NCBI GenBank assembly: GCA_964394085.1
Contig: CAYMWF010000024.1
Span: forward strand, 20,749 to 52,748
Origin: an uncultured Gemmatimonadota bacterium
GTDB lineage: Bacteria; GCA-2686955; CAYMWF01
Direction of reading: 5' to 3'
DNA: 32,000 nt
Shown here: one piece after another, positions 3,183 through 26,111 of the stretch
How positions within the stretch are numbered: the stretch's first letter is position 1
Layout: every line of letters starts with the position of its first letter
The notes under the pieces: model-generated
The model's input: only the letters and a program-made list of their open reading frames with translations
The model's database searches: none
Told to the model about the DNA's origin: nothing
Program-made: the position numbers and the translations under genes

Positions 3183-4031
3183 TCAATGGAGTAGAAGTTT
3201 GCTCCCGTTTTCGTCTTCATCTTCATCTTCCATCACTTCCGCTCTCATCAAATCGGTGGCCATACTGACTGCCCTCAATGCGGTATCGACGATCTCTTCG
3301 TCGTCGGAATCGATATATCCCTCGAGAAGGTCTGTAGCCTCAAAGGGGCGGATACAGGCCGCCGCCTCGAGAGCCGCCAGGAGCACGCGTTTGCCGGTCT
3401 CTTCCGAGATCAGGAGGTTCATGACATGGGACCAGGCCTCGTCAATCTCCCAGGTTCCCGCAGCGTAAACGGCTTCGGCATGAATTGCCTCGTCTTCGTT
3501 ATTCAGTTCTTCCAGAATATAATCGTCGAAACCGGCGATCCAGCGCATCGAAAATACCGCGGTAAGTTTCCAGAGCTCGTCTCCGCTTGTATACGCTTCC
3601 TGAACCGCTTCGATATGCCAGTCTTCGGGGGCGCGAATAGATGCTTCAAGGGTCATTCGCCTGACATTTTTGGGGATATCCGTATCGAGACAGATCTGTC
3701 GGAGCGATTCTTTAATATGACGGAACTTCTTTTCGGTAACAGGAACATCATCCGGTTCTTCGAACTCTTCAATATCGGCCAGCTCCAGGACCGGTCCGAG
3801 CGAAATCGCCGCGATCCCGCGCAGATCCTCCGGTTCTTCGGCATTTAACAGAATTGACAGAAGGACGTCGGCCAGATCATCGTTGATAACGGTTAAATCA
3901 CCGGCCATCTCCGCAGCGAGAAGACGATCAGGTGTATCCATCCGGTTATCCGACATGATTCTCATAAGGAATATACCGGTATTGTCCGGCCATTCCCAGG
4001 GCGGGGTTTTCTGCAGTAATTTTAGATCCAT
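3183..4031 (-). CDS. highly acidic HEAT-like helical-repeat protein
   Basis: 282-aa ORF with AAGGA about 7 nt upstream of the ATG on the minus strand. My hand count gives ~66 Asp+Glu versus ~23 Lys+Arg, and the C-terminus reads MEDEDEDENG. Helical-repeat signatures recur: DRLLAAEMAGDL, LRGIAAISLGPV, VRRMTLEASI, IHAEAVYAAGTW, RVLLAALEAAAC. Confidence 0.65.
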   Translation of the reverse strand: MDLKLLQKTPPWEWPDNTGIFLMRIMSDNRMDTPDRLLAAEMAGDLTVINDDLADVLLSILLNAEEPEDLRGIAAISLGPVLELADIEEFEEPDDVPVTEKKFRHIKESLRQICLDTDIPKNVRRMTLEASIRAPEDWHIEAVQEAYTSGDELWKLTAVFSMRWIAGFDDYILEELNNEDEAIHAEAVYAAGTWEIDEAWSHVMNLLISEETGKRVLLAALEAAACIRPFEATDLLEGYIDSDDEEIVDTALRAVSMATDLMRAEVMEDEDEDENGSKLLLH

Positions 4032-4090
4032 CGGTTTTCCTTTTCGGTACTCATAAAAACAGAGTGATCGGTAACTGGTGTCTGCTGATT

Positions 4091-5371
4091 CTACCTGCCG
4101 GGTCTTCGTGTTCCAGTCTTTTTCAGTTCAGCGGTCTCAACCGTCCTCTGCCGTTTGAGGATTTCCCTCAGCCGTTTGATGATACTGGTCGCACTCATCA
4201 CTCGTTGATATACGTAAAGCCGGCCGGGCAGATCTTTATCGAGAACTTCTTCGCTCACGCGGAGGCGTCTACTGACCGCGAAGATTATCTGAAAAGGCAG
4301 GCCTGCTTCGACCAGCTCCACCCGCCGCCAGACGGCTTCCCGGCTCCAGTAGCCCAAAACTTCGAGGAAAATCCTGATACCGGATTCTTCATGGGTGAAG
4401 ACGAGATCCGGCACGCACAATCCGACGCCCGGCAGATCCAGCAAGTCATTTGCAACACGGGCTTTCCAGGGCGATTCGATACCCTTGAAACGTTCCAGAA
4501 GCTGCTCCACCTCGTCCGGAAGGCGAACCTTGCAATCCTGGAGAACACTCTCCGGTTTCCCTTCCAGATGGAATACGAAAGGTTTCCGTTCCCGGCCCCA
4601 CTTGATGTCGGCATCGAGTTCCCACCGCCCTCCGCTCTCTTCCAGCGCCGGAAGCATCAGTGCAAGCTGCAGACCGTACCTGGTCACCGCCTTGAAAAGG
4701 CTGAAAGGGCCGTCGATCTCAATTCTGTAACGATCTTCCTGTTTGTCATAGTCGATAGTGTGCAAGAGCCTTCGGAATTTGAGCTTCTGGAAGAACATCC
4801 TGTACCCGGCCGGATCGGCGCACCGGATCTTGACGACAACCTTGACGGCACGTAAAAGAACAGCCTGTTTCTGGGATCTTACGTATAGATCGACCAGCGC
4901 AGGTGCGCTTATCGTGTCGAATTTCGTGCATTTATGGTTCTCTTTAAGATCCGCGTAAAGAAGACCGTCGACCTCGCCGGGCGGAATCCCCCGGACCGCA
5001 GCCACCTCCTCGATTACCGCCGCGGCATCGAAGATTGCGGAATCCTCGAGCGTCTTCCGGGCCTCGGTTGCGGCGGTGAAAAGCGCTTTTCTCAAAGCCC
5101 GCGGTTCCACATCGGTTCGTGCTTCGAAGGTGCACCTGTCCTCCACGAGTTTCCGCACCCCTTTAATCATCTTGAAGTCGGAGGTCGCCCGCCGGAGAGG
5201 CTCGCTCAACGCCGACCTGAATTCTCCCTGCGTTCGTCCGACATTTTCCCCGGCCAGGGTTATATATTCTTCGGCGTATCGGAGAAGGAGCTTCTTTTTG
5301 GCGGGATTCAGCCGAGGCACGTGGAGACGCCCGTTCCGCCTGATCACCCTTACGAGATCAACGGTAAGCAA
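4091..5371 (-). CDS. DUF790/Bax1-like nuclease (XPB partner)
   Basis: 426-aa ORF whose start (5371) overlaps the upstream helicase stop (5358) by 14 nt. The N-terminus MLTVDLVRVIRRNGRLHVPRL and the C-terminal nuclease-like core CVPDLVF...IFLEVLGYWS resemble the DUF790/Bax1 family as I remember it. Not searched. Confidence 0.7.
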   Translation of the reverse strand: MLTVDLVRVIRRNGRLHVPRLNPAKKKLLLRYAEEYITLAGENVGRTQGEFRSALSEPLRRATSDFKMIKGVRKLVEDRCTFEARTDVEPRALRKALFTAATEARKTLEDSAIFDAAAVIEEVAAVRGIPPGEVDGLLYADLKENHKCTKFDTISAPALVDLYVRSQKQAVLLRAVKVVVKIRCADPAGYRMFFQKLKFRRLLHTIDYDKQEDRYRIEIDGPFSLFKAVTRYGLQLALMLPALEESGGRWELDADIKWGRERKPFVFHLEGKPESVLQDCKVRLPDEVEQLLERFKGIESPWKARVANDLLDLPGVGLCVPDLVFTHEESGIRIFLEVLGYWSREAVWRRVELVEAGLPFQIIFAVSRRLRVSEEVLDKDLPGRLYVYQRVMSATSIIKRLREILKRQRTVETAELKKTGTRRPGR

Positions 5372-6746
5372 CGTGAGCCCTCCTGCGTCTGCTCGTGAAC
5401 ATTTCGGAAGTGTCGTTGGCTACGATCTCGTAAAGAACCGCCTGTTTTTCTCCTTTTTTCCGCAGGATTCGTCCGAGCCGCTGCACATGCTCCCTGATCG
5501 AGCCGCTTCCGGAGATTATGATGCCGACATTCGCTTCCGGGATGTCGACCCCCTCGTTCAAAACCTTGGATGCCGCCAGGACGTTATATGTTCCTTTCGA
5601 AAAGCCGTCGAGAATCTCAGCGCGTTCCGTCACTCTGGTCTGATGGGTGATTACGGGCACCAGGAACCGGCGCGACAATTCGTAAGCCGGCTTATTGCGC
5701 TCGGTGAACAGCAGCACTCGATCGTGCCGGTGCCTGTGCAGAAGGTGGTCGATATATTTCAGCTTCGAAGGAGCCGAGAAAGCAAGATGTTTCTGCTTCT
5801 GATAGGCTTCCATGGCCCTTCTTCCTTCGATGCCGCTTCCCGAGCGTTTGAGGAACTGCTTCCAGCCGTCGGGCGTGTGCATCCGTATCCCGTGGCGAGC
5901 TATAAAAGCGAGATAGATGCCCCGTGCTTTTTCATACTCGCTGCGTTCCTCTTCGCTCAACTCGACCAGTAGCCGTTCGATCGTATAGTCTGCGAGATAT
6001 TCACCGGCGAGATCACCTATTTCGCATGCGTACGCGGTCGGACCGATAAGATGCGAAAAGTCGACATGTTTTCCGTCCGCGCGTTCAGGAGTGGCCGACA
6101 ATCCCAGCCTGTAGGGCGCCAGGCATGAGCTCGCCGCAAGAGAAAATGAATCACCCGGCAAATGATGACATTCGTCGAAAATAATCATTCCGAAACGAGC
6201 GCCCAGGTGCTCCATGTGCAGATATGCGGAATCGTAGGTGGTGGCGGTGAGCGGTTCGATCGTGAACTCTCCTCCGCCGACGACGCCCACATCGCAGCGG
6301 AAGCTGGTGCGCAGCAGATCGTACCACTGGGTTACGAGGTTGAGAGTAGGCGCAACCACCAGCGTGCTTTTCCGCACTGCATCGATCGCCATCAACCCGA
6401 CGTAGCTTTTACCCGCGCCGGTGGGAAGAACCACCAGGCCGCGCCCTCCCGAGTCATACCAGGCTTCGAAGGCTTCCTGCTGGAACGGCCTCGGAACACG
6501 TTTGACCTTGAGAGAGGTTTTCAGGTCATCGAAACGGCGGGCGTCATCCGTGAAGGAGACCCCGTGAAGCCCGAGAGATTCCACTATTGCGGCATAAGCG
6601 AGTGCCGGGGCGCGGTGGCATCTTGTCCGGTGATCCCATAGAACTCCATCCGGAAAGGGGAAAGGGGGCTCTTTGCCGAAACCTCTTATCTCCACGGTGC
6701 CGGCTGTGAAACACAGCTTTATATCAGGAGACAGACGGGTCATCAT
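5358..6746 (-). CDS. xpb: XPB/ERCC3-type superfamily 2 DNA helicase
   Basis: Motif I LPTGAGKS, Ia VVAPT, II IIFDECHH, III LSAT. Motif III is followed directly by PERADG (nt 6075-6098), the position of the XPB RED motif. Late motifs are VLNEGVDIPEANV and QRLGRILR. A ~90-aa N-terminal extension resembles the XPB damage-recognition domain. The gene is coupled to a DUF790 gene. Confidence 0.85.
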   Translation of the reverse strand: MMTRLSPDIKLCFTAGTVEIRGFGKEPPFPFPDGVLWDHRTRCHRAPALAYAAIVESLGLHGVSFTDDARRFDDLKTSLKVKRVPRPFQQEAFEAWYDSGGRGLVVLPTGAGKSYVGLMAIDAVRKSTLVVAPTLNLVTQWYDLLRTSFRCDVGVVGGGEFTIEPLTATTYDSAYLHMEHLGARFGMIIFDECHHLPGDSFSLAASSCLAPYRLGLSATPERADGKHVDFSHLIGPTAYACEIGDLAGEYLADYTIERLLVELSEEERSEYEKARGIYLAFIARHGIRMHTPDGWKQFLKRSGSGIEGRRAMEAYQKQKHLAFSAPSKLKYIDHLLHRHRHDRVLLFTERNKPAYELSRRFLVPVITHQTRVTERAEILDGFSKGTYNVLAASKVLNEGVDIPEANVGIIISGSGSIREHVQRLGRILRKKGEKQAVLYEIVANDTSEMFTSRRRRAHVAYR

Positions 6747-12538: not shown

Positions 12539-12567
12539 TTGTAATTTTCAATTCAGAATATTATACA
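12539..12567 (+). promoter_or_regulatory. candidate sigma70-like promoter for the 12620-17423 unit
   Basis: TTGTAA (12539-12544), a 17-nt spacer, then TATACA (12562-12567). It sits about 50 nt upstream of the GGAGGAGG RBS (12607-12614) and the ATG at 12620. The promoter consensus of this organism is unknown. Confidence 0.25.
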
Positions 12568-12619
12568 ACATAATCTAGTTACTGTATCAGGTCTGGATAC
12601 TTCTCTGGAGGAGGATTTT

Positions 12620-13222
12620 ATGTTCGGACGAATATTCAACAATATGAACGCAGGTTTGGTGATTATTATTTTCCTGGTTTTCGCACCCTCATATGCAGAC
12701 GATGTTACCGACTCGATCGACGAAGGAATAAAATACTATAAAGCGGGCGAGTTTTCGGATGCGGTTTTGAGTCTGAACTACGCTGTGCAGCTCATCCAGC
12801 AGAAGAAGGGCGCGAGTATGGAAAGTCTGCTTCCGGAACCTCTGAAGGGATGGAAGGCCGAGGAGGCGACCACCGAGACGGCTGCGGCGTCTATGATGGG
12901 GGGGATGGTCACCGCCGAGCGCCGGTATACGAAGGGTTCCAGTTCCGTTTCGATTCAGATCATCACCGATTCCCCCGTTCTTCAAGGGTTGCTGATGATG
13001 TTCGCCAATCCCATGTTCGCTTCATCCGACGGCGGTAAACTTGAAAGAATCAAAAAGCAGAAAGCCATAGTCAAGTATGATGAAGCGAGTAAAGAAGGTG
13101 AAATTCAAATCGTAGTAGCCAATCGATTCTTTGTTCAAATCGACGGAAACGGCGCAACAAAGGACGATCTGATTAAATTCGCGGAAGCGATCGATTACAA
13201 AAAGATCGAATCACAACCGTAG
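12620..13222 (+). CDS. secreted hypothetical protein (200 aa)
   Basis: Strong RBS GGAGGAGG 5 nt upstream. Signal peptide NAGLVIIIFLVFAPSYADD. The rest looks soluble. No family recognised. Confidence 0.7.
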   Translation: MFGRIFNNMNAGLVIIIFLVFAPSYADDVTDSIDEGIKYYKAGEFSDAVLSLNYAVQLIQQKKGASMESLLPEPLKGWKAEEATTETAAASMMGGMVTAERRYTKGSSSVSIQIITDSPVLQGLLMMFANPMFASSDGGKLERIKKQKAIVKYDEASKEGEIQIVVANRFFVQIDGNGATKDDLIKFAEAIDYKKIESQP

Positions 13223-13325
13223 TTGTTGCGGAGTTTTCCGGCAGTTTCTGGCGGTTTCATCCTTTCCGGGTTCCGGTTCATGCCCGGATCGGCCGGATCG
13301 TTCATGGAAAAGAACGGGGAATTCG

Positions 13326-15203
13326 TTGAGTCGCGGAATATCCCAGGACAAGACAATAATTGCGTGGGAGCGAATCGTTTCCATAATCGAAAGAGCCCTT
13401 GCCGCAGGGGATGAAGCAGCGGATGGTGAAGATGATACCATCCGCGTTCCGCTCGGACGATTCCTTCTCTCCCAGATGTTCCACCGGGTTAAACCCGCCC
13501 TGTCCAAGGGCTGGCTGGAGCGGGATCCGGTGCACCTGGTGATGTTCGGAGCCACCAACAGCGGCAAATCGACCGTATTGAACCTGCTCCTCGGAAAGAT
13601 CTCCGCCCCGACGGATTCGAAGGCCAGATCCACCCAGCATTCCACGGCCTTTCGCAGCTCCTCCATGGGAAATCGCTTCGTCGATGATTTTCCGACGCGC
13701 TTCCCGAATTACCATCGTTATCTCAACGAGTATCCCGAAAAACAGTCCGACGGGGAGTTGAGGACCGGCGGATACAGACCTTGTTTCGTCATCTATGATC
13801 CTGATGAATCTCCGGGCCGATCCCTGGCGGCTCCGGTAGCGGAATCGGCGGTATTCTGGGACACCCCCGACTTCTCTACCGAAGAGGCCCAGATATACAT
13901 GTCTGCGGTGCTCGATACAGCGGCGATGGGCGACATCGTTATTTTGACGGTCACCAGAGAGAACTACGCCGATCACAGGGGCCTCCTGCTGCTCGACATG
14001 ATCCGTAAGACCGGCGTGCCGGTTCTGGTAATTGCAAACAAGCTTGAGGATGACACCAGCCTTCTCGACGATATAAAGGGCAAGCTGTATTCCGGAAAAC
14101 CGGAAAAATCCGGGAGGCGAAAAAAGGAATTTGAAATTTATCCGCTGCCGTACGTAAGGGGTTCGGACGACGATGAGCGGACACGTCTTCTTTCCGAGCA
14201 TGCGGGTGCTTCCGTTCTGAGGGAAGCTTCCGCCGAATATATTGCATCCGGTCCCAGGCTGAAGAAGCGGGTGCTGAAAGGATGTTCGGAGTTCATCGAA
14301 CAGTCTCTGGATGACGTGCTCAAGCCCCTGAGGACGGAGATCGATCTCGAAGAATCCTGGGCTGCGGCCGTTGATAAGATTACCGAAGCGGAATTCTATT
14401 CACGGTACTGGAGCGATTACCTGGGAAGAGAAGACTACGAGCAGTACGGCGATTTCAACCTGGCGGTCATCAAGTGGCTGGATCTGCTCGAGATTCCGGG
14501 TATCGGCAGGTTCGTATCGAGGGCGGCGGGCGTGGCTCGCTTGCCTTTCAGGTGGGTGAAAAAAGGGATCAGGAAAATCCTGACCGATGATGACCAGCCT
14601 GTCAAAACGAAAGAGGAGGAAGTGGTTTATGACTCTTACCAGCGATGGATACGGGCCCTGATCGCCGAAGCCCAGCGAAGGGGAGAAAGGTTCGATAATA
14701 CAGCCCAGGTAAAACTCGAACAGAAACTCGGCAGCGACATATTCAGAAGTGAGCTCGAGGAAAATTTCAGCCGGGCATATGTCAGTCACCGCAAAACCAT
14801 GAAAGTGCTCATCGAACAGGTTGCATACAGCCTGGCGGAATATGTCGAAAAACGTCCTTCGGTAAGAAAAGCGCTTCAAGGCTCCAAATTCCTGCTCGAT
14901 TCCGTCGCAACGATCGGCGTGGTGGCGACGGGCGGTCTCGACTGGACCGACCTGGTCGTTGCTCCGATGGTTGCCCCGGTGGTCCGCCTGGTCCTGGAAT
15001 TGGCCGGCCAGGGCTTCATGGAAATCCAGAAGCGGGCTTTGAAGGAGAATCAGTTCCGGTCGATGCGAAAAGCTTTCAATGATTACATGGTGGAACCCGT
15101 CAAGACAGGGCTGGAGGTCTCGGTCACTCGCGATGAATTCGAATCGGTAACCGGAGATTTCGCCGTTCTGAAAAAAGCCCTTGCTGAAATCAGCCGGGCC
15201 TGA
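13326..15203 (+). CDS. large dynamin-like P-loop GTPase, paralog A
   Basis: G1 GATNSGKS (13548-13571). G3-position WDTPDF (DTPD at 13860-13871). G4-like ANKLED. About 350 aa of helical sequence follow, with a late hydrophobic segment VATIGVVATGGLDWTDLVVAPMVAPVV. The start is uncertain: TTG at 13326 with GGGGA upstream, and the first in-frame ATG at 13476. Confidence 0.75.
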   Translation: MSRGISQDKTIIAWERIVSIIERALAAGDEAADGEDDTIRVPLGRFLLSQMFHRVKPALSKGWLERDPVHLVMFGATNSGKSTVLNLLLGKISAPTDSKARSTQHSTAFRSSSMGNRFVDDFPTRFPNYHRYLNEYPEKQSDGELRTGGYRPCFVIYDPDESPGRSLAAPVAESAVFWDTPDFSTEEAQIYMSAVLDTAAMGDIVILTVTRENYADHRGLLLLDMIRKTGVPVLVIANKLEDDTSLLDDIKGKLYSGKPEKSGRRKKEFEIYPLPYVRGSDDDERTRLLSEHAGASVLREASAEYIASGPRLKKRVLKGCSEFIEQSLDDVLKPLRTEIDLEESWAAAVDKITEAEFYSRYWSDYLGREDYEQYGDFNLAVIKWLDLLEIPGIGRFVSRAAGVARLPFRWVKKGIRKILTDDDQPVKTKEEEVVYDSYQRWIRALIAEAQRRGERFDNTAQVKLEQKLGSDIFRSELEENFSRAYVSHRKTMKVLIEQVAYSLAEYVEKRPSVRKALQGSKFLLDSVATIGVVATGGLDWTDLVVAPMVAPVVRLVLELAGQGFMEIQKRALKENQFRSMRKAFNDYMVEPVKTGLEVSVTRDEFESVTGDFAVLKKALAEISRA

Positions 15204-15219
15204 ACCGGAGTAGGCTCAA

Positions 15220-17067
15220 ATGCGGAACAGTCAGGACAGCCGGATTGAAAACGCTCTCCGAACGCTGGAAACCGGAATCGTCGATCCCAGGGCGCTCAAT
15301 ATTCAACCCGCACAGGAGATGCGGCTTCGACGGGCGATCGAGAGGGTCGGAGCGCAGCTTGCCGGAGCGGGAGAACCGGTGCTTACCGTGGCGCTTGCGG
15401 GATGTACGGGTTCAGGCAAGAGCACATTGATCAATGCCCTTGCCGGCGCCCCCATCGCCGGTGTTTCCGAGCACAGGCCATGCACGACGGGGATCAATGT
15501 CTATCATCACGAAGCCGTTCCCGGGGAAGAGCTCTTCAAAGAGCTGGCGGAAACCGCAGAATTCGTTCCGCATGCCAGGCCCGAGCTCAGGTTCAAAGTT
15601 ATCGTCGATACTCCCGATCTGGATTCCTTTGCGACCGGCAACCGGAAGATTACCCGCGCCCTTCTCAAGACGGCGGGTCTCGTAATCTACATTTTCAGTC
15701 CTGAACGGTACCTTGAAGAACGCGCCTGGTCGGTCATCCGCGAGGAAAAACGTTTCAGCCGCTCACTGGCTGTCCTGAACAAGTCGGATACGGTCTCTCC
15801 TGATGTTCTCGAGAAGATTTCGGGTGATATCCGCGACAGGTTTTTTGAAATGGGACTGCCGGATGTCAGGCTCCTCCGGCTCAGCGCCGCTTCCAATACG
15901 CCGGGGATGATCGACGCTCCGGCGGCCGGGTCGACAAAAGAGCCAATCGACGAATTCGCTTCCCTCAGGGCGTTTCTCGAGTTCGAACTGAGATCGGGAG
16001 AGGTTTTCCAGATGCTTCGGCGGCAGCGGATCAACGTTGTCGAGGTCCTCCGCGAAAAAGTGGCGGAGGTCGTCAGACCCGGTGAAATCAGAACCGCGAT
16101 CGAGCGGTTGAGCGCCGCCGTTGAAGATCACGGGGAAAAAGCCGCTGATGAACTTGCAGGGATATTGAAAAACCGAATATCGGCGATCACTTCACAGCTC
16201 GAACCTTTAATCATTATTCGCAAACACCAGCGGTTCTGGGGGCCGTTCCGTGTTTGGCTCGCTGTTTCGGATTTTCTGTCCTACCGGTTGCCTCAACTGG
16301 TGAGAGGCATCAGGTTCGCGGGAACGCGTGGAGAAGGTTCGATAGTCGAGAAAGCGCTCAGGCTCGATTATTCAGACCGGGTTGATGATCTGTTATCCGC
16401 CGGCGCTCTCGAATTGCAGAATGTCTGCTACGAAGAGAATCTACCCCTGGAACGCTGGCGGACGATTACCGAAAAGGACAGCGGGAGCGCTTTACTGCTG
16501 ACGATTGCAAACGATGTCGAAGCGAAATTCGAAGGAATATCGGAAGACGCGTCGACGGGCGGCGCAGTGGCTGCATGGCTGATCAGTCTGATCGCATTCC
16601 TTTTTCCCGTGGGGCTCGCGGTGTTCGGCACTTATATCCTTGTCGGCGATATTCTGAATGCAAGATTTTCAGGTTTCGGCGTTCTCCAGACATTTATTGT
16701 TCTAACGCTTCTCGGGTATCTCCATCTTCATGTTCTCACCGCGCTTTTTTTCCGCTCCGGCAGGCCGGCTTCATCCAGGCGGATCGGTGAATCAGTCTTG
16801 AGAAAAACGGTCAAGGATATTTTTAAACGATGGCTTGCCTCTTACCGGGCCGACATCGATGCGGATATCAGGAGATTCGAAGAGCCCCTGAAGGTCCTGG
16901 CCGAGCAGGCCGCCGAAATTCCGGCGGTCGGCGATCCCGCACGGAGCGAAACCTCTCATTCCGATCTTTCCGAACCGGTTGAAAAAGCGGCAACCGGGCA
17001 ATCCGGCGAGGTGATTCCGCCGGCGGAAAGCCTGAAGCGGACCGTCGAGCAGATGGAGTCTGAATGA
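15220..17067 (+). CDS. large dynamin-like P-loop GTPase with C-terminal transmembrane hairpins, paralog B
   Basis: GGAG RBS in the 16-nt gap after paralog A. G1 GCTGSGKS (15400-15423). G2-like PCTTG. G3-position VDTPDL (DTPD at 15607-15618). G4 LNKSD. TM segments AVAAWLISLIAFLFPVGLAVFGTYILVG and VLQTFIVLTLLGYLHLHVLTALFF at aa ~447-520, followed by a helical tail. Confidence 0.8.
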   Translation: MRNSQDSRIENALRTLETGIVDPRALNIQPAQEMRLRRAIERVGAQLAGAGEPVLTVALAGCTGSGKSTLINALAGAPIAGVSEHRPCTTGINVYHHEAVPGEELFKELAETAEFVPHARPELRFKVIVDTPDLDSFATGNRKITRALLKTAGLVIYIFSPERYLEERAWSVIREEKRFSRSLAVLNKSDTVSPDVLEKISGDIRDRFFEMGLPDVRLLRLSAASNTPGMIDAPAAGSTKEPIDEFASLRAFLEFELRSGEVFQMLRRQRINVVEVLREKVAEVVRPGEIRTAIERLSAAVEDHGEKAADELAGILKNRISAITSQLEPLIIIRKHQRFWGPFRVWLAVSDFLSYRLPQLVRGIRFAGTRGEGSIVEKALRLDYSDRVDDLLSAGALELQNVCYEENLPLERWRTITEKDSGSALLLTIANDVEAKFEGISEDASTGGAVAAWLISLIAFLFPVGLAVFGTYILVGDILNARFSGFGVLQTFIVLTLLGYLHLHVLTALFFRSGRPASSRRIGESVLRKTVKDIFKRWLASYRADIDADIRRFEEPLKVLAEQAAEIPAVGDPARSETSHSDLSEPVEKAATGQSGEVIPPAESLKRTVEQMESE

Positions 17068-17423
17068 GCCGTTCTGAATCGAAATTCGAACATCGCCGGT
17101 TGCGGCGCGAGAGAAAGACCGTGGCCGCCATGCAGCGGATCTATTGCCGGGCCAACCACGGGACGGCAAGAGGATTATGCGCCGAATGCGATGAATTGAA
17201 GGCGTACTCCGAAGCCCGTCTTGCGGCGTGCCCGTACGGATGGGAAAAACCTCCCTGCTCGGAATGCACGATCCACTGCTACAAACCGGAGAGAAGGGAA
17301 CAGATCCGTGCGGTTATGCGATACGCAGGCCCTCGAATGTTTTTCCGGCATCCGATCCTGGCTGTCCATCACCTGCTGAATAAACGGAAGACAAATCGCG
17401 TGTCGGATACAGCAAAGGTGTAA
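17064..17423 (+). CDS. ygbA: nitrous-oxide-stimulated-promoter (YgbA-like) family Cys-rich protein
   Basis: Its ATG (17064-17066) overlaps the TGA of the preceding gene (17065-17067). The sequence YCRANH...LCAECDELKAYSEARLAACPYGWEKPPCSECTIHCYKPERREQIRAVMRYAGPRMFFRHP matches the YgbA family signature as I remember it. Confidence 0.8.
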   Translation: MSRSESKFEHRRLRRERKTVAAMQRIYCRANHGTARGLCAECDELKAYSEARLAACPYGWEKPPCSECTIHCYKPERREQIRAVMRYAGPRMFFRHPILAVHHLLNKRKTNRVSDTAKV

Positions 17424-17468
17424 GGGCACGGGTCAAAATAAATCGGTGATTTATTTTGACCCGTACCC
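17424..17468. terminator. long perfect hairpin (17-bp stem, 3-nt loop), likely terminator of the GTPase unit
   Basis: ACGGGTCAAAATAAATC (17428-17444) is the exact reverse complement of GATTTATTTTGACCCGT (17448-17464), with loop GGT. The stem extends to GGGC/ACCC with one mismatch. It begins 1 nt after the ygbA-like stop. There is no downstream U-tract. Confidence 0.55.
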
Positions 17469-17628
17469 TAAATCGATACACGGCTGCCCCTGTTTTGGCT
17501 TGTCTGCTCCGTCAACTCCGGTATAGTGACCGAAGAGTGACGGAGCGGTGAGGTTCGGATATCCGGTGAACTTCCGGTGCCTTACGGCTGAAACTCGGGA
17601 GCGATGCGGGTCAACAAGGAGAAGTAGA

Positions 17629-19293
17629 ATGTGTGAAGTGTATCCGGGTCGAAAACGAAAACAGGCGGCTGCTTTCGGCAAAATCGCCGCGGTACTTCTT
17701 TTGCTCTGCGTTTTTACATTTCCGGCTTCATCCGGAGAATATCCTGAATTGAAGCGGGCTTCGGAAATGATGGAAACCGTGTTAAGCATGGAAGGGGATA
17801 TTTTTGCGCCGAATTCGTTCGGGAAAGCGCAGAAATATTATGACAAGGCGAGTTCGGCCGCGGAAAAAGGCAAGGCCAGACAGACTGTCGAAAACGCTGA
17901 AAAATCCCTGGAGCAACTGGAGAACGCGGTCAAGGCTACCGAACTGGCGAAGATCACTTTAGAAACGTACCTGGAGCCGAGGGCAAAAGCGATTGCGGCG
18001 GATGCTCCCGAAATTGTATCGCACGCATTCAATAAGGCGGAGGCGCAGCTGAAGAAAGCAACGGCCAAGCTCGAGTCGGGCGACATGAGGGCGGCCCTGG
18101 ACGAGGCCGCGAAATCAACTCCTTTATACGATTCGTCCGAGTTGTCCGCCATCAAGATTACCGTCATGTCAGAAGCGGATAAGCTCATCCAGGAAGCGAT
18201 CAAGGATGAAGCCGAGAAGTTTGCATTGATTACCCTCAACAAGGCGCGCTCTTCCCGCACCCTTACAAACGCCATCCTCGACAAGGATCGGTACGACAGG
18301 GAAAACGCCGAGAACGAAATCGCCGCAGCCGAGTACGAGGCCCGCCACGCGTCCAATATCGCCCAGACCGTCCGTTCGCTCAACAGGAACGACCAGGACT
18401 GGGAGAAACTGATACTGGTCGAAGAAGACCGTCTCAACAAGGTCGGAAAGCTGTTCGGCGCGGAGCGTCTCAATTTCGAAAAAGGTTCCGAGGCGGCCGT
18501 AGACAGCCTGGTGGCCCTGATCGGCCGGCTCCAGGGCGATAAAGCCGGATTTATAAAAATGAATGCGATCCTCGCTAAAAAGCTCGGTCTTATTTCCGAC
18601 AGGCCGGACGAAACGTCTTACGGAGATCCGGTCGCCCTGGCGGGTGAAATCGATGAAGAAGTCTCCCGTCTTCTGGAAGAAAGAAAAATCCTTGCAGGAT
18701 TTTTCGGGTCGTTTCAGACTTCGCTGGCCCGTCTCGGCCTTGAAATTTCCGGCGACAGCCTGCCCGAACTTTCCAAATCGATAGAAGAAGGTTTGACGTT
18801 CGTTTTTACCCAGATAGACAGTCTGAAAATGTCGTTCGAAAAGATCTCCTCCGAACTGGAAACACGCAAAGAAAGAGAAGACAAATTCTGGACGGCCAAA
18901 ACGATGCTCCGCCCATCTGAAGGTGAAGTCCTCTTCAATACCGCGAACGAGATTGTAGTCAGGCTCCTGGGGCTCTCATTCGACCCCGGCAGGAGCGAAC
19001 TGAAAGACCGGCACGCGCTGCTCCTGAGAAAAGCGGGGGATATTATCAGGATGTTTCCCGGTTCGAATATCAGCGTGGAGGGGCATACCGATTCACGGGG
19101 CGATCGAACCACCAACCTGCGACTTTCCAGGAAGCGGGCGGAAGCTGTGAAGGTATACCTGCAGCAGGGTCTCATGCTGCCGGACGAACGGATATCGGCT
19201 ACCGGCTTCGGCTCGGACAAACCGATTGCCTCGAACAGCACCTCGGAGGGCCGCGCAAGGAACCGGAGGATCGATATAACAATCAAATATTGA
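17629..19293 (+). CDS. OmpA-family protein with long helical (DUF4398-like repeat) N-terminal region
   Basis: I prefer the ATG at 17629 (AGGAG at 17617-17621, 7-nt spacer) over the track start at 17548. Signal peptide AAFGKIAAVLLLLCVFTFPASSG. Three helical repeats: FGKAQKYYDKASSA, FNKAEAQLKKATAK, LNKARSSRTLTNA. C-terminal OmpA domain: VEGHTDSRGDRTTNLRLSRKRAEAV ... NRRIDITI. Confidence 0.85.
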   Translation: MCEVYPGRKRKQAAAFGKIAAVLLLLCVFTFPASSGEYPELKRASEMMETVLSMEGDIFAPNSFGKAQKYYDKASSAAEKGKARQTVENAEKSLEQLENAVKATELAKITLETYLEPRAKAIAADAPEIVSHAFNKAEAQLKKATAKLESGDMRAALDEAAKSTPLYDSSELSAIKITVMSEADKLIQEAIKDEAEKFALITLNKARSSRTLTNAILDKDRYDRENAENEIAAAEYEARHASNIAQTVRSLNRNDQDWEKLILVEEDRLNKVGKLFGAERLNFEKGSEAAVDSLVALIGRLQGDKAGFIKMNAILAKKLGLISDRPDETSYGDPVALAGEIDEEVSRLLEERKILAGFFGSFQTSLARLGLEISGDSLPELSKSIEEGLTFVFTQIDSLKMSFEKISSELETRKEREDKFWTAKTMLRPSEGEVLFNTANEIVVRLLGLSFDPGRSELKDRHALLLRKAGDIIRMFPGSNISVEGHTDSRGDRTTNLRLSRKRAEAVKVYLQQGLMLPDERISATGFGSDKPIASNSTSEGRARNRRIDITIKY

Positions 19294-25223: not shown

Positions 25224-26111
25224 ATGGATAATCCGTACAAGGATTCATTGAAAGGGCTCGAGATTCCCGATCCCGTGGAGGCTTTTTTCTCCTGGTGCAG
25301 GGAGCGGGAGCGGATCAGGACCAGGCGCGAGTCGGGAGCACCGCCCCCGTGGACCGAAGATCCTGTTTTTCAAAAAGGGCGGTTTCTGAACGTGTTCAGG
25401 GAGGACGACAGGGGAACCAGAGCCGTTCTCCGGTTCGTCTCGCCTGTCGGAGATCTGGTTTCCCCGTTGATTCACGCGATTTTTTTCGCCCGGTGGTGCA
25501 ATCGCTCCGCCACTCTGGATAAGCTTCACCCGGATCTGCTGTCCGATCCCGAACTCCTGCGAAAAACGCTTCTTCACGAAGTGGGTCAGCCATGGTTTTC
25601 AGACGTTTACCCGGTCGAACCGGTTCGGTGGGATGGCCGGACCTTCGACCGCCTGGAAACCTGCACGCACCTGTTCGGGAAATGTCTCGCTTTTCTGGAG
25701 AGCTCCATACGGGAGTCAGGGGGAAACGTGATTACCGCAACGGACGCGATCAACGAAGAATTCAGGATGGCGAATGATTTTCCGATCTTCATGGCGCTGG
25801 TCGATATTGCCTGGTTCCACCCGGACCTGATCCATCCGGAAAGCCCCGTCCCCACGGGCATCGGAGCCGTTCCTTTCCTGGATCTTCTGCAGCGTCACCT
25901 CGAAACGCCCGATCACCAGGCCGCGGCTGAAAAGATGATGGAGCTCCAGCCGGCTTGCTGGCCGGAAGCGCGCCGGCGGTTCACTCCCCTCGATATCGAA
26001 TATATCTCCTGCGAGTGCCGTAAGTATTTCAGTTATAAAAACGGCACGAAACAGTTCACCGGGAAGAACCTTTTCACTCCCTGCGAAACTTCTTTCTCCC
26101 ATAAAGGGTAA
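25224..26111 (+). CDS. all-alpha protein resembling the aGPT-Pplase / 5-hmdU DNA kinase helical-domain family (putative DNA base hypermodification protein)
   Basis: GAGG RBS upstream. The N-terminal FFSWCRERERIRTRRESGAPPPWTEDPVFQKGRFLNVFREDDRGTRAV matches the family signature (W..ER..I...R..G.P.PWT.DP....F.N.FRE.DR.T). The C-terminal LDIEYISCECRKY also matches. Both are recalled from memory and not searched. The CDS itself is well supported; the function is tentative. Confidence 0.5.
   Translation: MDNPYKDSLKGLEIPDPVEAFFSWCRERERIRTRRESGAPPPWTEDPVFQKGRFLNVFREDDRGTRAVLRFVSPVGDLVSPLIHAIFFARWCNRSATLDKLHPDLLSDPELLRKTLLHEVGQPWFSDVYPVEPVRWDGRTFDRLETCTHLFGKCLAFLESSIRESGGNVITATDAINEEFRMANDFPIFMALVDIAWFHPDLIHPESPVPTGIGAVPFLDLLQRHLETPDHQAAAEKMMELQPACWPEARRRFTPLDIEYISCECRKYFSYKNGTKQFTGKNLFTPCETSFSHKG

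What the first reader, a model, noticed from the sequence alone, without database searches (positions are those of the whole stretch)
12539..17468. Promoter-to-hairpin four-gene unit: secreted protein, two paralogous membrane-anchored dynamin-like GTPases, and a Cys-rich YgbA-like protein
Seen in sequence: four same-strand genes are separated by gaps of 103 nt and 16 nt and then a 4-nt ATGA overlap. A sigma70-like box and a strong RBS precede them, and a 17-bp perfect hairpin closes the unit 1 nt after the last stop. The two central proteins (625 and 615 aa) share one layout: an N-terminal P-loop GTPase domain, about 350 aa of helical sequence, a late hydrophobic or TM segment, and a helical tail. 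Established knowledge: this is the layout of bacterial dynamin-like proteins, which are typically encoded as tandem pairs (DynA, IniA/IniC, Campylobacter DLP1/DLP2, LeoABC). The LeoA/LeoBC pair was reported as the Eleos anti-phage system (Millman et al. 2022). Inference: this may be a heterotypic membrane-remodelling or defence module. Two accessory genes I do not know to be described with such pairs (a periplasmic 200-aa protein and a YgbA-like metal-binding protein) are attached to it.
Basis: partly seen in the sequence, partly recalled or inferred. Interest (0 to 1): 0.7.

Follow-up and report, generated by a model that had tools for sequence, protein, structure and literature searches.

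The report
Tandem bacterial dynamin-like GTPase pair
Two adjacent genes encode a pair of bacterial dynamin-like membrane GTPases, one anchored by a two-helix membrane hairpin and one soluble; this is a known kind of machine from an unstudied branch, and the two "accessory" genes beside it are not conserved partners.

Summary
The genes, the gaps (103 nt, 16 nt, a 4-nt ATGA overlap), the strong RBS and the 17-bp hairpin are all as described. The promoter-like box is no better than chance.

AlphaFold models of both central proteins (pLDDT 82-83) match BDLP, the Campylobacter DLP1/2 pair, IniA and the mitofusins best. They are therefore dynamin-like proteins, not Era/EngA-type GTPases. Profile comparison shows they are distant paralogs.

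Only protein B (615 aa) has a conserved two-helix membrane hairpin. Protein A (625 aa) has none. This matches the "anchored plus soluble partner" division of labour described for Streptomyces DynB/DynA.

The A-B pair is kept adjacent in 8 of 10 lineages examined, including a cultured Singulisphaera, usually with a 4-nt overlap. The YgbA-like gene follows B only in the window and one 68%-identical relative. The 200-aa secreted protein is linked only here and stands alone in other genomes. The conserved unit is therefore two genes, not four.

Membership of Eleos (LeoA/LeoBC) fails, and the flanks are not a defence island.

One unusual feature: both proteins, and about 100 of 106 wider relatives, carry DxPD in place of the near-universal G3 motif DxxG.

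Verdict: a real, uncharacterised member of a known kind, of moderate interest.

The parts
13326..15203 (+). Gene A: 625-aa dynamin-like GTPase, predicted soluble or peripheral partner. It has N-terminal neck helices, a G domain at about aa 69-290, a helical trunk, a weak hydrophobic 'paddle' at aa 511-560 and C-terminal return helices. Its motifs are P-loop G-x-T-N-x-GKST, G3 WDxPDFS and G4 NKL[E/x], which lacks the conserved Asp.
   Evidence: ORF. MMR_HSR1 scores 32 bits; Dynamin_N scores 19 bits, below its cutoff. AF2 pLDDT 82. Foldseek top hits are BDLP 2j69 (E = 5.7e-9), Drp1, IniA and Cj-DLP2. Motif columns. No conserved TM segment. The TTG start is supported by the conserved N-terminal helix in homologs.
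15220..17067 (+). Gene B: 615-aa dynamin-like GTPase, membrane-anchored. It has N-terminal helices, a G domain at aa 55-226, a helical trunk, a TM hairpin at aa 447-479 and 485-512 (nt 16558-16755), a long return helix at aa 522-565 and a disordered tail. Its motifs are G1 GxxGxGKST, G2 RP[CT]T, G3 DTPDLD and G4 NKxD.
   Evidence: ORF. Dynamin_N scores 32.3 bits against a cutoff of 27, over the P-loop region only; MMR_HSR1 scores 31.6 bits. AF2 pLDDT 83. Foldseek top hits are BDLP 2j68 (E = 2.6e-11), Cj-DLP1/2, IniA and mitofusins. The profile hits Cj-DLP1 5owv_A at E = 6.8e-6, with DTPD aligned to DTPG. The TM hairpin is present in 26/26 family members. Motif columns.
17064..17423 (+). YgbA-like Cys-rich protein (119 aa, 7 Cys). 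It overlaps the stop codon of B by 4 nt (ATGA). It is a lineage-specific passenger or partner, not part of the conserved pair.
   Evidence: PF11756 YgbA_NO scores 145 bits. NF007714 scores 123 bits against a cutoff of 88. The overlap is read from the sequence. It is present after B only in the window and in L005/L006. It is absent after B in L011-L014, L025, L027 and L029.
17423..17469 (+). Strong stem-loop directly after the YgbA stop codon. It is a probable 3'-end element (terminator or RNA stabiliser), but it has no U-tract.
   Evidence: Arms of 22 nt, 95% complementary, with 17 perfect pairs; -31.8 kcal/mol; z = -7.3. Not reported by the terminator scan. Absent from L005.
12620..13222 (+). 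200-aa secreted protein with a signal peptide ending SYA|DD. It is an adjacent same-strand gene and may be co-transcribed here, but it is not a conserved partner of the pair.
   Evidence: No match in Pfam, NCBIfam, PADLOC, PHROGs or the PDB. N-terminal hydrophobic segment. More than 600 homologs, about 60% identical and 200-201 aa long. It stands alone in Thiogranum longum and in a deltaproteobacterial MAG. It is absent upstream of A in every other locus.
12545..12614 (+). AT-rich promoter-like region (TTTTCA-18-CATAAT) and a strong RBS, GGAGGAGG (12607-12614), upstream of the 200-aa gene.
   Evidence: the hit count is not above the shuffle expectation. Sequence.

Best explanation
Genes A (13326-15203) and B (15220-17067) encode a heterotypic pair of bacterial dynamin-like proteins (DLPs).

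Shown here:
- Both have an N-terminal GTPase domain followed by a BDLP/mitofusin-type helical neck and trunk.
- They are distant paralogs.
- B carries a conserved two-helix transmembrane hairpin where the BDLP paddle or the mitofusin TM region sits. A carries none.
- The two genes stay adjacent and tightly coupled across Planctomycetota, Tectomicrobia and the window's own lineage.

Inferred, by analogy with Cj-DLP1/2, B. subtilis DynA, Streptomyces DynA/DynB and the mitofusins:
- B is permanently inserted in the cytoplasmic membrane and recruits soluble A into a hetero-oligomer.
- Nucleotide-dependent G-domain contacts and hinge movements of the helical bundles then tether, bend or fuse/repair membrane.

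In this lineage only, the pair is translationally coupled to a YgbA-type Cys-rich protein, and the transcript probably ends at the 17423-17469 stem-loop. That suggests, but does not show, co-expression under a redox or nitrosative stress regime. The upstream 200-aa secreted protein is an unrelated neighbour.
For: - Fold: the top PDB hits for both models are BDLP, Cj-DLP1/2, IniA, MFN1/2, Fzo1, EHD and Drp1. E-values reach 2.6e-11 over about 650-740 aligned columns. The models have pLDDT 82-83.
- Sequence: the B profile hits Cj-DLP1 at E = 6.8e-6. Dynamin_N is above its cutoff for B.
- Paralogy: hhalign gives 97.8% probability.
- TM hairpin: present in 26/26 B-family members and in 95/106 wider representatives.
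- Pairing: A lies directly upstream of B in the window, L005, L012, L013, L014, L025, L026 and L029, mostly with a 4-nt overlap. A further 19 A/B hits share contig lengths.
- In L027, two flotillin-type Band_7 genes sit between A and B.
- Literature: most bacterial DLPs are tandem pairs that act as hetero-oligomers, with one membrane-binding partner and one weakly binding partner (PMC6104087, PMC6162298, PMC4159319). DynB has two TM segments and DynA is its partner (PMC8748795).
Against: - No biochemical or expression data exist for this family.
- TM-scores to solved DLPs are low (0.2-0.36), as expected for flexible multi-domain proteins, so the domain-by-domain equivalence is inferred.
- Both proteins replace the DxxG glycine with Asp (DxPD), and A lacks the G4 Asp. 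Canonical GTP binding or hydrolysis is therefore not assured.
- B occurs without A in L011.
- The A-B interaction was not modelled.
Confidence: 0.72

Rival explanations
1. The four genes form one functional module: a DLP pair with a periplasmic 200-aa protein and a YgbA-type metalloprotein as dedicated accessories.
For: All four genes are on the same strand with short gaps. B and YgbA overlap by 4 nt, and this overlap is kept in the 68%-identical relative. A single strong hairpin follows the last gene.
Against: - The 200-aa gene is absent from the closest relative and from all other loci. Its family (>600 members) stands alone in other genomes.
- YgbA follows B in only 2 of 9 informative lineages.
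- Those two genomes are collinear over unrelated flanking genes as well (DUF790, XPB helicase, beta-helix protein, OmpA-like). The shared order may therefore reflect recent common ancestry rather than selection.
Confidence: 0.1
2. The pair is an anti-phage defence system of the Eleos (LeoA/LeoBC) type, or works like B. subtilis DynA in sealing phage-damaged membranes.
For: - Weak PADLOC LeoA hits: 50.5 bits for B and 35.2 bits for A.
- DLPs are documented in phage defence (bioRxiv 10.1101/2022.12.12.520048; PMC12998192).
Against: - The LeoA hits cover only the N-terminal G region. LeoBC scores 18 and 14 bits. The NCBIfam LeoA/HP0731 subfamily model scores 14 bits against a cutoff of 325.
- The immediate neighbours are histidine kinases, an OmpA-like protein and a TonB receptor. 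No defence models hit adjacent genes.
- The flanks differ in every lineage and are housekeeping-like.
- No credible phage or plasmid copies were found.
Confidence: 0.08
3. The same dynamin-like machine is present, but its cellular job is stabilising the divisome, as with Streptomyces DynA/DynB, rather than membrane repair or fusion.
For: - The architecture is the same: a soluble DLP followed by a DLP with two TM helices (PMC8748795).
- Actinobacterial tandem relatives share the DxPD motif and the TM hairpin in the second gene.
Against: - Identity to the actinobacterial proteins is only 26-33% and confined to the G domain.
- No division genes are adjacent in any locus.
- Many carriers are Planctomycetota. 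I recall that several of these lack a canonical FtsZ, which would argue against an FtsZ-ring role there; this was not checked here.
Confidence: 0.12
4. The proteins are not membrane remodellers. They are degenerate or regulatory NTPases (for example IRG/GIMAP-like scaffolds or Era/EngA-type assembly factors) that merely keep a helical tail.
For: - MMR_HSR1 is the best Pfam hit for A. There are weak P-loop hits to Era, Der and IRG proteins.
- The G3 motif is non-canonical and A lacks the G4 Asp.
Against: - All equivalog models score 10-fold below their cutoffs.
- The full-length fold matches are to dynamin-superfamily proteins, not to Era or EngA.
- A conserved TM hairpin and tandem pairing are DLP hallmarks.
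Confidence: 0.08

Closest known systems
Streptomyces DynA/DynB (Schlimpert et al. 2017, as summarised in PMC8748795 and PMC6104087)
   Same: A tandem operon with a soluble DLP first and a DLP with two transmembrane segments second, and the two interact. Actinobacterial tandem relatives found here (L007-L009, L028) show the same order, the same TM hairpin and the DxPD motif.
   Different: Identity is only 26-33% over the G domain, and that is to actinobacterial relatives rather than to DynA/DynB themselves. Orthology is untested. No divisome context was found. The carriers here are Planctomycetota, Tectomicrobia and an unnamed sediment lineage.
Campylobacter jejuni DLP1/DLP2 (PDB 5OWV/5OXF; PMC6104087)
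   Same: A side-by-side heterotypic pair. Only one partner is the main membrane binder. It is the best sequence-profile hit for B (E = 6.8e-6) and among the top fold hits for both proteins.
   Different: Cj-DLP1 binds membrane through a paddle, not a TM hairpin. Its G3 motif is the canonical DTPG. Identity is 12-15%.
Nostoc punctiforme BDLP1 (PDB 2J68/2J69)
   Same: It is the top Foldseek hit for both models, with nearly full-length alignments. The plan is the same: G domain, neck, trunk and tip.
   Different: It has a transient paddle rather than a TM anchor and a canonical G3 motif. Identity is 12-15%.
Mitofusin/Fzo1
   Same: A G domain with helical bundles and a hairpin of two TM helices late in the sequence gives permanent membrane attachment. 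MFN1 5gnt gives TMt 0.55 with B.
   Different: These are eukaryotic, act on the mitochondrial outer membrane, and have no separate soluble paralog encoded in tandem.
LeoA/LeoBC (Eleos anti-phage system; PMC4159319, bioRxiv 10.1101/2022.12.12.520048)
   Same: A tandem DLP pair with weak HMM similarity in the G domain.
   Different: It fails the curated LeoA model (14 bits against 325). The LeoC/LeoBC anchor is N-terminal to the G domain, whereas here the hairpin is at the trunk tip. The window has no defence-island context.
E. coli/Salmonella YgbA (NsrR-regulated; PMC2884951, PMC5320621)
   Same: The 119-aa protein is a clear YgbA_NO family member.
   Different: To my knowledge, enterobacterial ygbA is not linked to DLP genes. 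The biochemical function of the family is unknown.

Membership tests
Dynamin superfamily / bacterial dynamin-like proteins | N-terminal large GTPase domain recognised by the Dynamin_N model at Pfam's cutoff | tested here: inconclusive
   B scores 32.3 bits against a cutoff of 27, but over only 41 residues around the P-loop. A scores 19.3 bits, below the cutoff.
Dynamin superfamily / bacterial dynamin-like proteins | Helical neck and trunk (BSE/stalk) built from N- and C-terminal helices, with overall fold similarity to solved DLPs | tested here: met
   The top Foldseek PDB hits for both models are BDLP, Cj-DLP1/2, IniA, MFN, Fzo1, EHD and Drp1. E-values range from 2.6e-11 to 1e-6 at probability 1.00. 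The secondary structure is all-helical after the G domain.
Dynamin superfamily / bacterial dynamin-like proteins | Canonical G1-G4 motifs, including G3 DxxG | tested here: not met
   G1 is present in both. G2 Thr/Ser is present. G4 NKxD is present in B (26/26) but is NKL[E/x] in A. G3 is DxPD in both (D133 in 26/26; D182 in 24/24) and aligns to the DTPG of Cj-DLP1.
Dynamin superfamily / bacterial dynamin-like proteins | Membrane-binding element at the trunk tip | tested here: met
   B has two hydrophobic helices at aa 447-479 and 485-512, conserved in 26/26 members. For A the result is inconclusive: one moderately hydrophobic stretch that is not conserved.
Dynamin superfamily / bacterial dynamin-like proteins | Tandem heterotypic gene pair | tested here: met
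   A is directly upstream of B in 8 of 10 lineages.
Dynamin superfamily / bacterial dynamin-like proteins | Assembly-stimulated GTP hydrolysis and membrane remodelling | not testable with these tools
   Requires biochemistry.
Eleos (LeoA/LeoBC) | Match to the LeoA family model at its curated threshold | tested here: not met
   NF041922 DLP_LeoA_gen scores 14 bits against a cutoff of 325. PADLOC LeoA scores 50.5 and 35.2 bits, covering the N-terminal third only.
Eleos (LeoA/LeoBC) | A LeoBC-type partner | tested here: not met
   PADLOC LeoBC scores 18.2 and 13.6 bits over P-loop regions only.
Eleos (LeoA/LeoBC) | Anti-phage activity | not testable with these tools
   Requires phage challenge.
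Streptomyces DynA/DynB type | A soluble DLP followed by a DLP with two TM segments in one operon | tested here: met
   with the description in PMC8748795.
Streptomyces DynA/DynB type | Sequence orthology to DynA/DynB | not testable with these tools
   The Streptomyces sequences and the 2017 paper were not available. Only actinobacterial tandem relatives at 26-33% identity were seen.
Era/EngA/MnmE-type (TRAFAC, translation-related) GTPases | Match to an equivalog model at its cutoff | tested here: not met
   Era scores 28 bits against 237, Der 27 against 307 and MnmE 17-20 against 380. All hits are P-loop-only.
YgbA_NO (PF11756) | Match above the Pfam and NCBIfam cutoffs | tested here: met
   Pfam scores 145 bits against 25. 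NF007714 scores 123.1 bits against 88.

The most novel reading that the evidence does not exclude
A and B belong to a large, undescribed clade of heterotypic, TM-hairpin-anchored bacterial dynamins. In this clade both partners have replaced the near-universal switch-II glycine (DxxG) with aspartate (DxPD). One partner also carries a cation-type P-loop asparagine (GxxNxGKS) and has lost the guanine-specifying G4 Asp. This would imply a nucleotide cycle that differs from every characterised dynamin. In this sediment lineage the machine has additionally been wired, by translational coupling, to a YgbA-type Cys-rich stress protein.
Probability: 0.3. Interest if true: 0.55.

Novelty: new member of a known kind. 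Interest (0 to 1): 0.35.

Why it matters
Bacterial dynamin-like pairs are still poorly understood, and only a handful have been studied (BDLP1, DynA, DynA/DynB, IniA/IniC, LeoABC, Cj-DLP1/2).

This family matters for four reasons.
- It is widespread. The B-profile search found 212 representative clusters at E < 1e-30 and about 2,400 at E < 1e-10.
- It is mis-annotated in public data as Era, EngB, EcfA2 or "hypothetical".
- It occurs in cultured Planctomycetota, organisms known for unusual membrane architecture.
- It combines a mitofusin-like permanent anchor with a soluble partner and a non-canonical G3 motif.

It is therefore a tractable system for asking how a heterotypic DLP pair divides labour, and whether the DxxG glycine is dispensable.

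The negative result also matters. Neither the YgbA-like gene nor the 200-aa secreted protein should be annotated as a DLP accessory, and the locus should not be called Eleos.

Tried and rejected
They returned only 4 and 8 loci, mostly distant or fragmentary. Synteny therefore rests on 12 exact-protein look-ups plus shared contig lengths.
- The Schlimpert 2017 DynA/DynB paper is not held, so orthology to DynA/DynB could not be tested.
- The regions upstream of A in the window and in L005 do not align. The 103-nt gap between the 200-aa gene and A folds no better than shuffles (z = -0.83).
- There are no Rfam families or tRNAs in the window.
- PHROGs gave nothing meaningful.
- tblastn against plasmids found only a mislabelled Nonomuraea chromosome. 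tblastn against phages found only an UNVERIFIED high-GC faecal scaffold with tandem GTPase-like ORFs, which I do not count as phage evidence.
- YgbA and the 200-aa protein have no solved relatives.
- I considered and rejected Era/EngA-type GTPases, Eleos membership and a four-gene operon as a conserved module.


Full report
**1. Observation**

The six-frame ORF list shows four same-strand ORFs.

| Coordinates | Length | Note |
|---|---|---|
| 12620-13222 | 200 aa | secreted protein |
| 13326-15203 | 625 aa | protein A, TTG start |
| 15220-17067 | 615 aa | protein B |
| 17064-17423 | 119 aa | YgbA-like |

- The gaps are 103 nt and 16 nt, followed by an ATGA overlap.
- GGAGGAGG precedes the first ATG. 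GGAG motifs precede B and the last gene.
- TTG at 13326 is the first start codon in A's open frame. The conserved, confidently modelled N-terminal helix begins within the first few residues, which supports this start.
- The promoter-like match at 12545-12574 is one of four in 6 kb, against 3.2 +/- 1.6 expected in shuffles. It is not evidence by itself.
- The terminal inverted repeat is real and strong. Its arms span 17423-17444 and 17448-17469 and are 95% complementary, with 17 consecutive perfect pairs. It folds at -31.8 kcal/mol, z = -7.3, and is unique in the window.
- The hairpin lacks a U-tract and is absent from the closest relative.

**2. What the four proteins are**

- **The last protein** is an unambiguous YgbA_NO member. 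Pfam scores 145 bits against a cutoff of 25, and NF007714 scores 123 against 88.
- **The first protein** matches nothing in Pfam, NCBIfam, PADLOC, PHROGs or the PDB. It has an N-terminal signal-like segment.
- **A and B by sequence** hit only generic GTPase models. MMR_HSR1 scores about 32 bits for each. Dynamin_N scores 32.3 bits for B, just above its cutoff and over the P-loop only, and 19.3 bits for A, below the cutoff. The Era, Der, MnmE and YlqF equivalog models all score about tenfold below their cutoffs.
- **A and B by structure.** I built alignments of 26 B homologs and 24 A homologs. The AlphaFold models have mean pLDDT 83.1 and 82.0.
  - Each model shows two N-terminal helices, a G domain, about 300 residues of long helices, a hydrophobic element and a long return helix.
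  - Foldseek against the PDB ranks dynamin-superfamily proteins first for both. For B the top hits are BDLP 2j68 and 2j69 (E = 2.6e-11 and 5.3e-11), Cj-DLP1/2 5oxf/5owv, IniA 6j72, and then mitofusins, Fzo1, EHD and Drp1.
  - For A the top hits are BDLP (E = 5.7e-9), Drp1, IniA, Cj-DLP2, MxB, MFN1 and Fzo1.
  - TM-scores are low (0.2-0.36; 0.55 on the mini-MFN1 target). This is usual for flexible, elongated, multi-domain proteins, but it means the domain equivalence is inferred rather than shown.
- **Sequence link to a solved DLP.** The B profile also reaches Cj-DLP1 by sequence (E = 6.8e-6).
- **Conclusion.** Both proteins are dynamin-like.

**3. Relationship between A and B**

- BLASTP finds only the P-loop.
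- Profile-profile comparison gives 97.8% probability (E = 1.3e-12) over 273 columns. These cover the N-terminal helices, the G domain and the first trunk helix. A and B are therefore ancient paralogs.
- They differ in membrane attachment. B has two strongly hydrophobic helices at aa 447-479 and 485-512, and these are present in all 26 aligned family members. A has a single moderately hydrophobic stretch at aa 541-561, which does not reach TM-like hydrophobicity in most of its family.
- The description "two membrane-anchored" proteins should therefore read "one anchored, one soluble or peripheral".

**4. Synteny**

The window matches metagenome contigs of 45-93 kb that carry the same gene order. 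The table below summarises the loci examined.

| Locus | B identity | Arrangement |
|---|---|---|
| L005/L006 | 68% | A-B-YgbA (same 4-nt overlap)-OmpA-like; no 200-aa gene, no histidine kinase |
| L012, L013, L014, L025, L026 | 37-48% | A directly upstream of B, mostly a 4-nt overlap |
| L029 (Singulisphaera sp. GP187, cultured) | about 40% | A directly upstream of B, 4-nt overlap |
| L027 | 48% | A, then two Band_7 (flotillin-type) genes and a 179-aa gene, then B |
| L011 | 47% | B alone |

- L005/L006 is also collinear with the window over unrelated flanks (DUF790, XPB-type helicase, beta-helix protein). Shared order at this distance is therefore weak evidence of function.
- None of the more distant loci has YgbA, the OmpA-like gene or the 200-aa gene, and their flanks all differ.
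One of these pairs carries adjacent Isosphaeraceae locus tags, KatS3mg108_3843 and _3844.
- The 200-aa protein belongs to a family of more than 600 homologs that are about 60% identical and uniformly 200-201 aa long. It stands alone, with no GTPases nearby, in Thiogranum longum and in a deltaproteobacterial MAG.
- **Conclusion.** The conserved unit is the A-B pair. YgbA is a lineage-specific addition, tightly coupled here. The 200-aa gene is an unrelated neighbour.

**5. Family-level peculiarity**

Column counts give the following motifs.

| Motif | B family | A family |
|---|---|---|
| G1 | GxxGxGKS[T] | G-x-T-N-x-GKST (Asn in 22/24) |
| G2 | RP[CT]T | AR[FY]SQHP |
| G3 | DTPDLD (Asp133 in 26/26) | WDxPDFS (Asp182 in 24/24) |
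| G4 | NKxD (26/26) | NKL[E/x] (canonical Asp in 1/24) |

- The HMMER alignment to Cj-DLP1 places the family's DTPD on DTPG. Both partners therefore replace the glycine of DxxG with Asp.
- The exhaustive B-profile search found 4,899 representative clusters at E < 1e-3, 2,398 at E < 1e-10 and 212 at E < 1e-30.
- Of 106 full-length proteins among the top 150 hits, about 100 have DxPD and 95 have a TM-like segment at the expected distance from the P-loop.
- Actinobacterial loci show tandem pairs in which the first gene has DAPD and little or no TM segment, and the second has DLPD and a TM hairpin. These come from Mycobacterium, Timonella and Oryzihumus. Nonomuraea also has two adjacent B-like matches, but its motifs and TM segments were not examined.
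- From my own knowledge of GTPases, the G3 glycine is nearly invariant, and the P-loop Asn is typical of monovalent-cation-dependent GTPases such as MnmE and FeoB. What the substitution does here is unknown.

**6. Mechanism**

Shown:
- the fold;
- the paralogy;
- a TM hairpin in B only;
- conserved, translationally tight pairing.

Inferred from the DLP literature:
- Most bacterial DLPs are tandem pairs that act as hetero-oligomers (PMC6104087, PMC4159319).
- There is a division of labour between a membrane-binding partner and a weakly binding partner (PMC6162298).
- Streptomyces DynB is anchored by two TM segments and partners with DynA (PMC8748795).
- On that basis, B most likely sits permanently in the cytoplasmic membrane and recruits A. 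Nucleotide-driven G-domain and hinge rearrangements then tether, bend or fuse membrane.

The flotillin genes inserted between A and B in L027 fit a membrane-organisation role. I also recall reported genetic links between dynamin and flotillin in B. subtilis, but I did not check that here.

The cellular purpose (repair, division or vesiculation) is not determined.

The YgbA coupling hints at expression under nitrosative or redox stress, because ygbA is NsrR-regulated in enterobacteria (PMC2884951, PMC5320621). This is conjecture.

**7. Rivals**

- **Eleos or defence.** Membership fails. NF041922 scores 14 bits against 325, and the PADLOC LeoA and LeoBC hits are partial. The immediate neighbours are histidine kinases, an OmpA-like protein and a TonB receptor. 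The nearest defence-model hit is a partial PbeA match on an XPB-like helicase 6.6 kb upstream.
- **Four-gene module.** Refuted for the 200-aa gene and weak for YgbA (section 4).
- **Divisome role like DynAB.** The architecture is compatible, but orthology and context are untested.
- **Non-remodelling NTPase.** Not excluded by the odd motifs, but disfavoured by the fold and the TM hairpin.

**8. Novelty and score**

This is a genuine but uncharacterised member of a known kind: a heterotypic bacterial dynamin-like pair with one TM-anchored partner.

The DxPD motif and the size and mis-annotation of the family add some interest. JGI labels members as "EcfA2", "Era" or "EngB".

The four-gene story that motivated the original score does not survive. 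Interest: 0.35.

Noticed in passing
window 12620-13222; L015 6001-6603; L016 6001-6606: The 200-aa signal-peptide protein belongs to a very uniform family of 200-201 aa proteins, about 55-66% identical, with more than 600 homologs. Members occur in Thermodesulfobacteriota, Desulfobacteraceae, Psychromonas and Thiogranum. The family has no match in Pfam, NCBIfam, PHROGs or the PDB. It is encoded as a stand-alone gene in different contexts.
   Followed up: partly
window 13860-13871 (A, aa 179-182) and 15607-15618 (B, aa 130-133): Both DLPs carry DxPD where the near-universal G3 motif is DxxG. The Asp is invariant in both families and present in about 100 of 106 wider relatives. A also has a GxxNxGKS P-loop and lacks the G4 Asp. 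The functional meaning is unexplained.
   Followed up: partly
L027 1175-5007: In one metagenomic relative, two Band_7/SPFH (flotillin-type) genes (554 and 510 aa) and a 179-aa gene are inserted between the A and B genes, all on the same strand.
   Followed up: partly
window 17500-17527 and 17629-19293; L005 12206-12240 and 12278-13942: The downstream gene encodes a 554-aa protein with a signal peptide, a long helical region and a C-terminal OmpA domain. Upstream of it, a promoter-like TTG...-TAT... element and the string CTGTTTTGGCTTG are shared between the window and the 68% relative. This suggests the gene is its own transcription unit.
   Followed up: partly
window 4091-6746 (- strand): A DUF790 (Bax1-like) protein and an XPB-type helicase are encoded as an overlapping pair. 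The helicase gives a partial 172-bit match to the PADLOC PbeA model. The pair is conserved in the 68% relative.
   Followed up: no
window 25224-26111 (+): A 295-aa protein matches PF18723, the helical domain of 5-hmdU DNA kinase (70 bits). It is followed by an 84-aa ORF, an O-methyltransferase and an ABC-type ATPase that hits PADLOC mad3 (97 bits).
   Followed up: no
L014 10038-11084; L025 7974-8963: A URO-D family gene lies next to the A-B pair in two relatives. In L025 it overlaps the end of B by 4 nt. L025 also has NrfA-like and NrfH-like cytochrome genes nearby.
   Followed up: no
L030 (MT837334.1) 3345-6441: A scaffold labelled 'UNVERIFIED: Bacteriophage sp.' from human faeces carries two tandem GTPase-like ORFs (490 and 522 aa) about 30% identical to the G domain of B. 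The sequence is high in GC and is probably bacterial rather than phage.
   Followed up: partly
(homolog tables): Public annotations of this DLP family are inconsistent and mostly wrong. Labels include 'energy-coupling factor transporter ATP-binding protein EcfA2', 'GTPase Era', 'EngB', '50S ribosome-binding GTPase' and 'hypothetical protein'.
   Followed up: no
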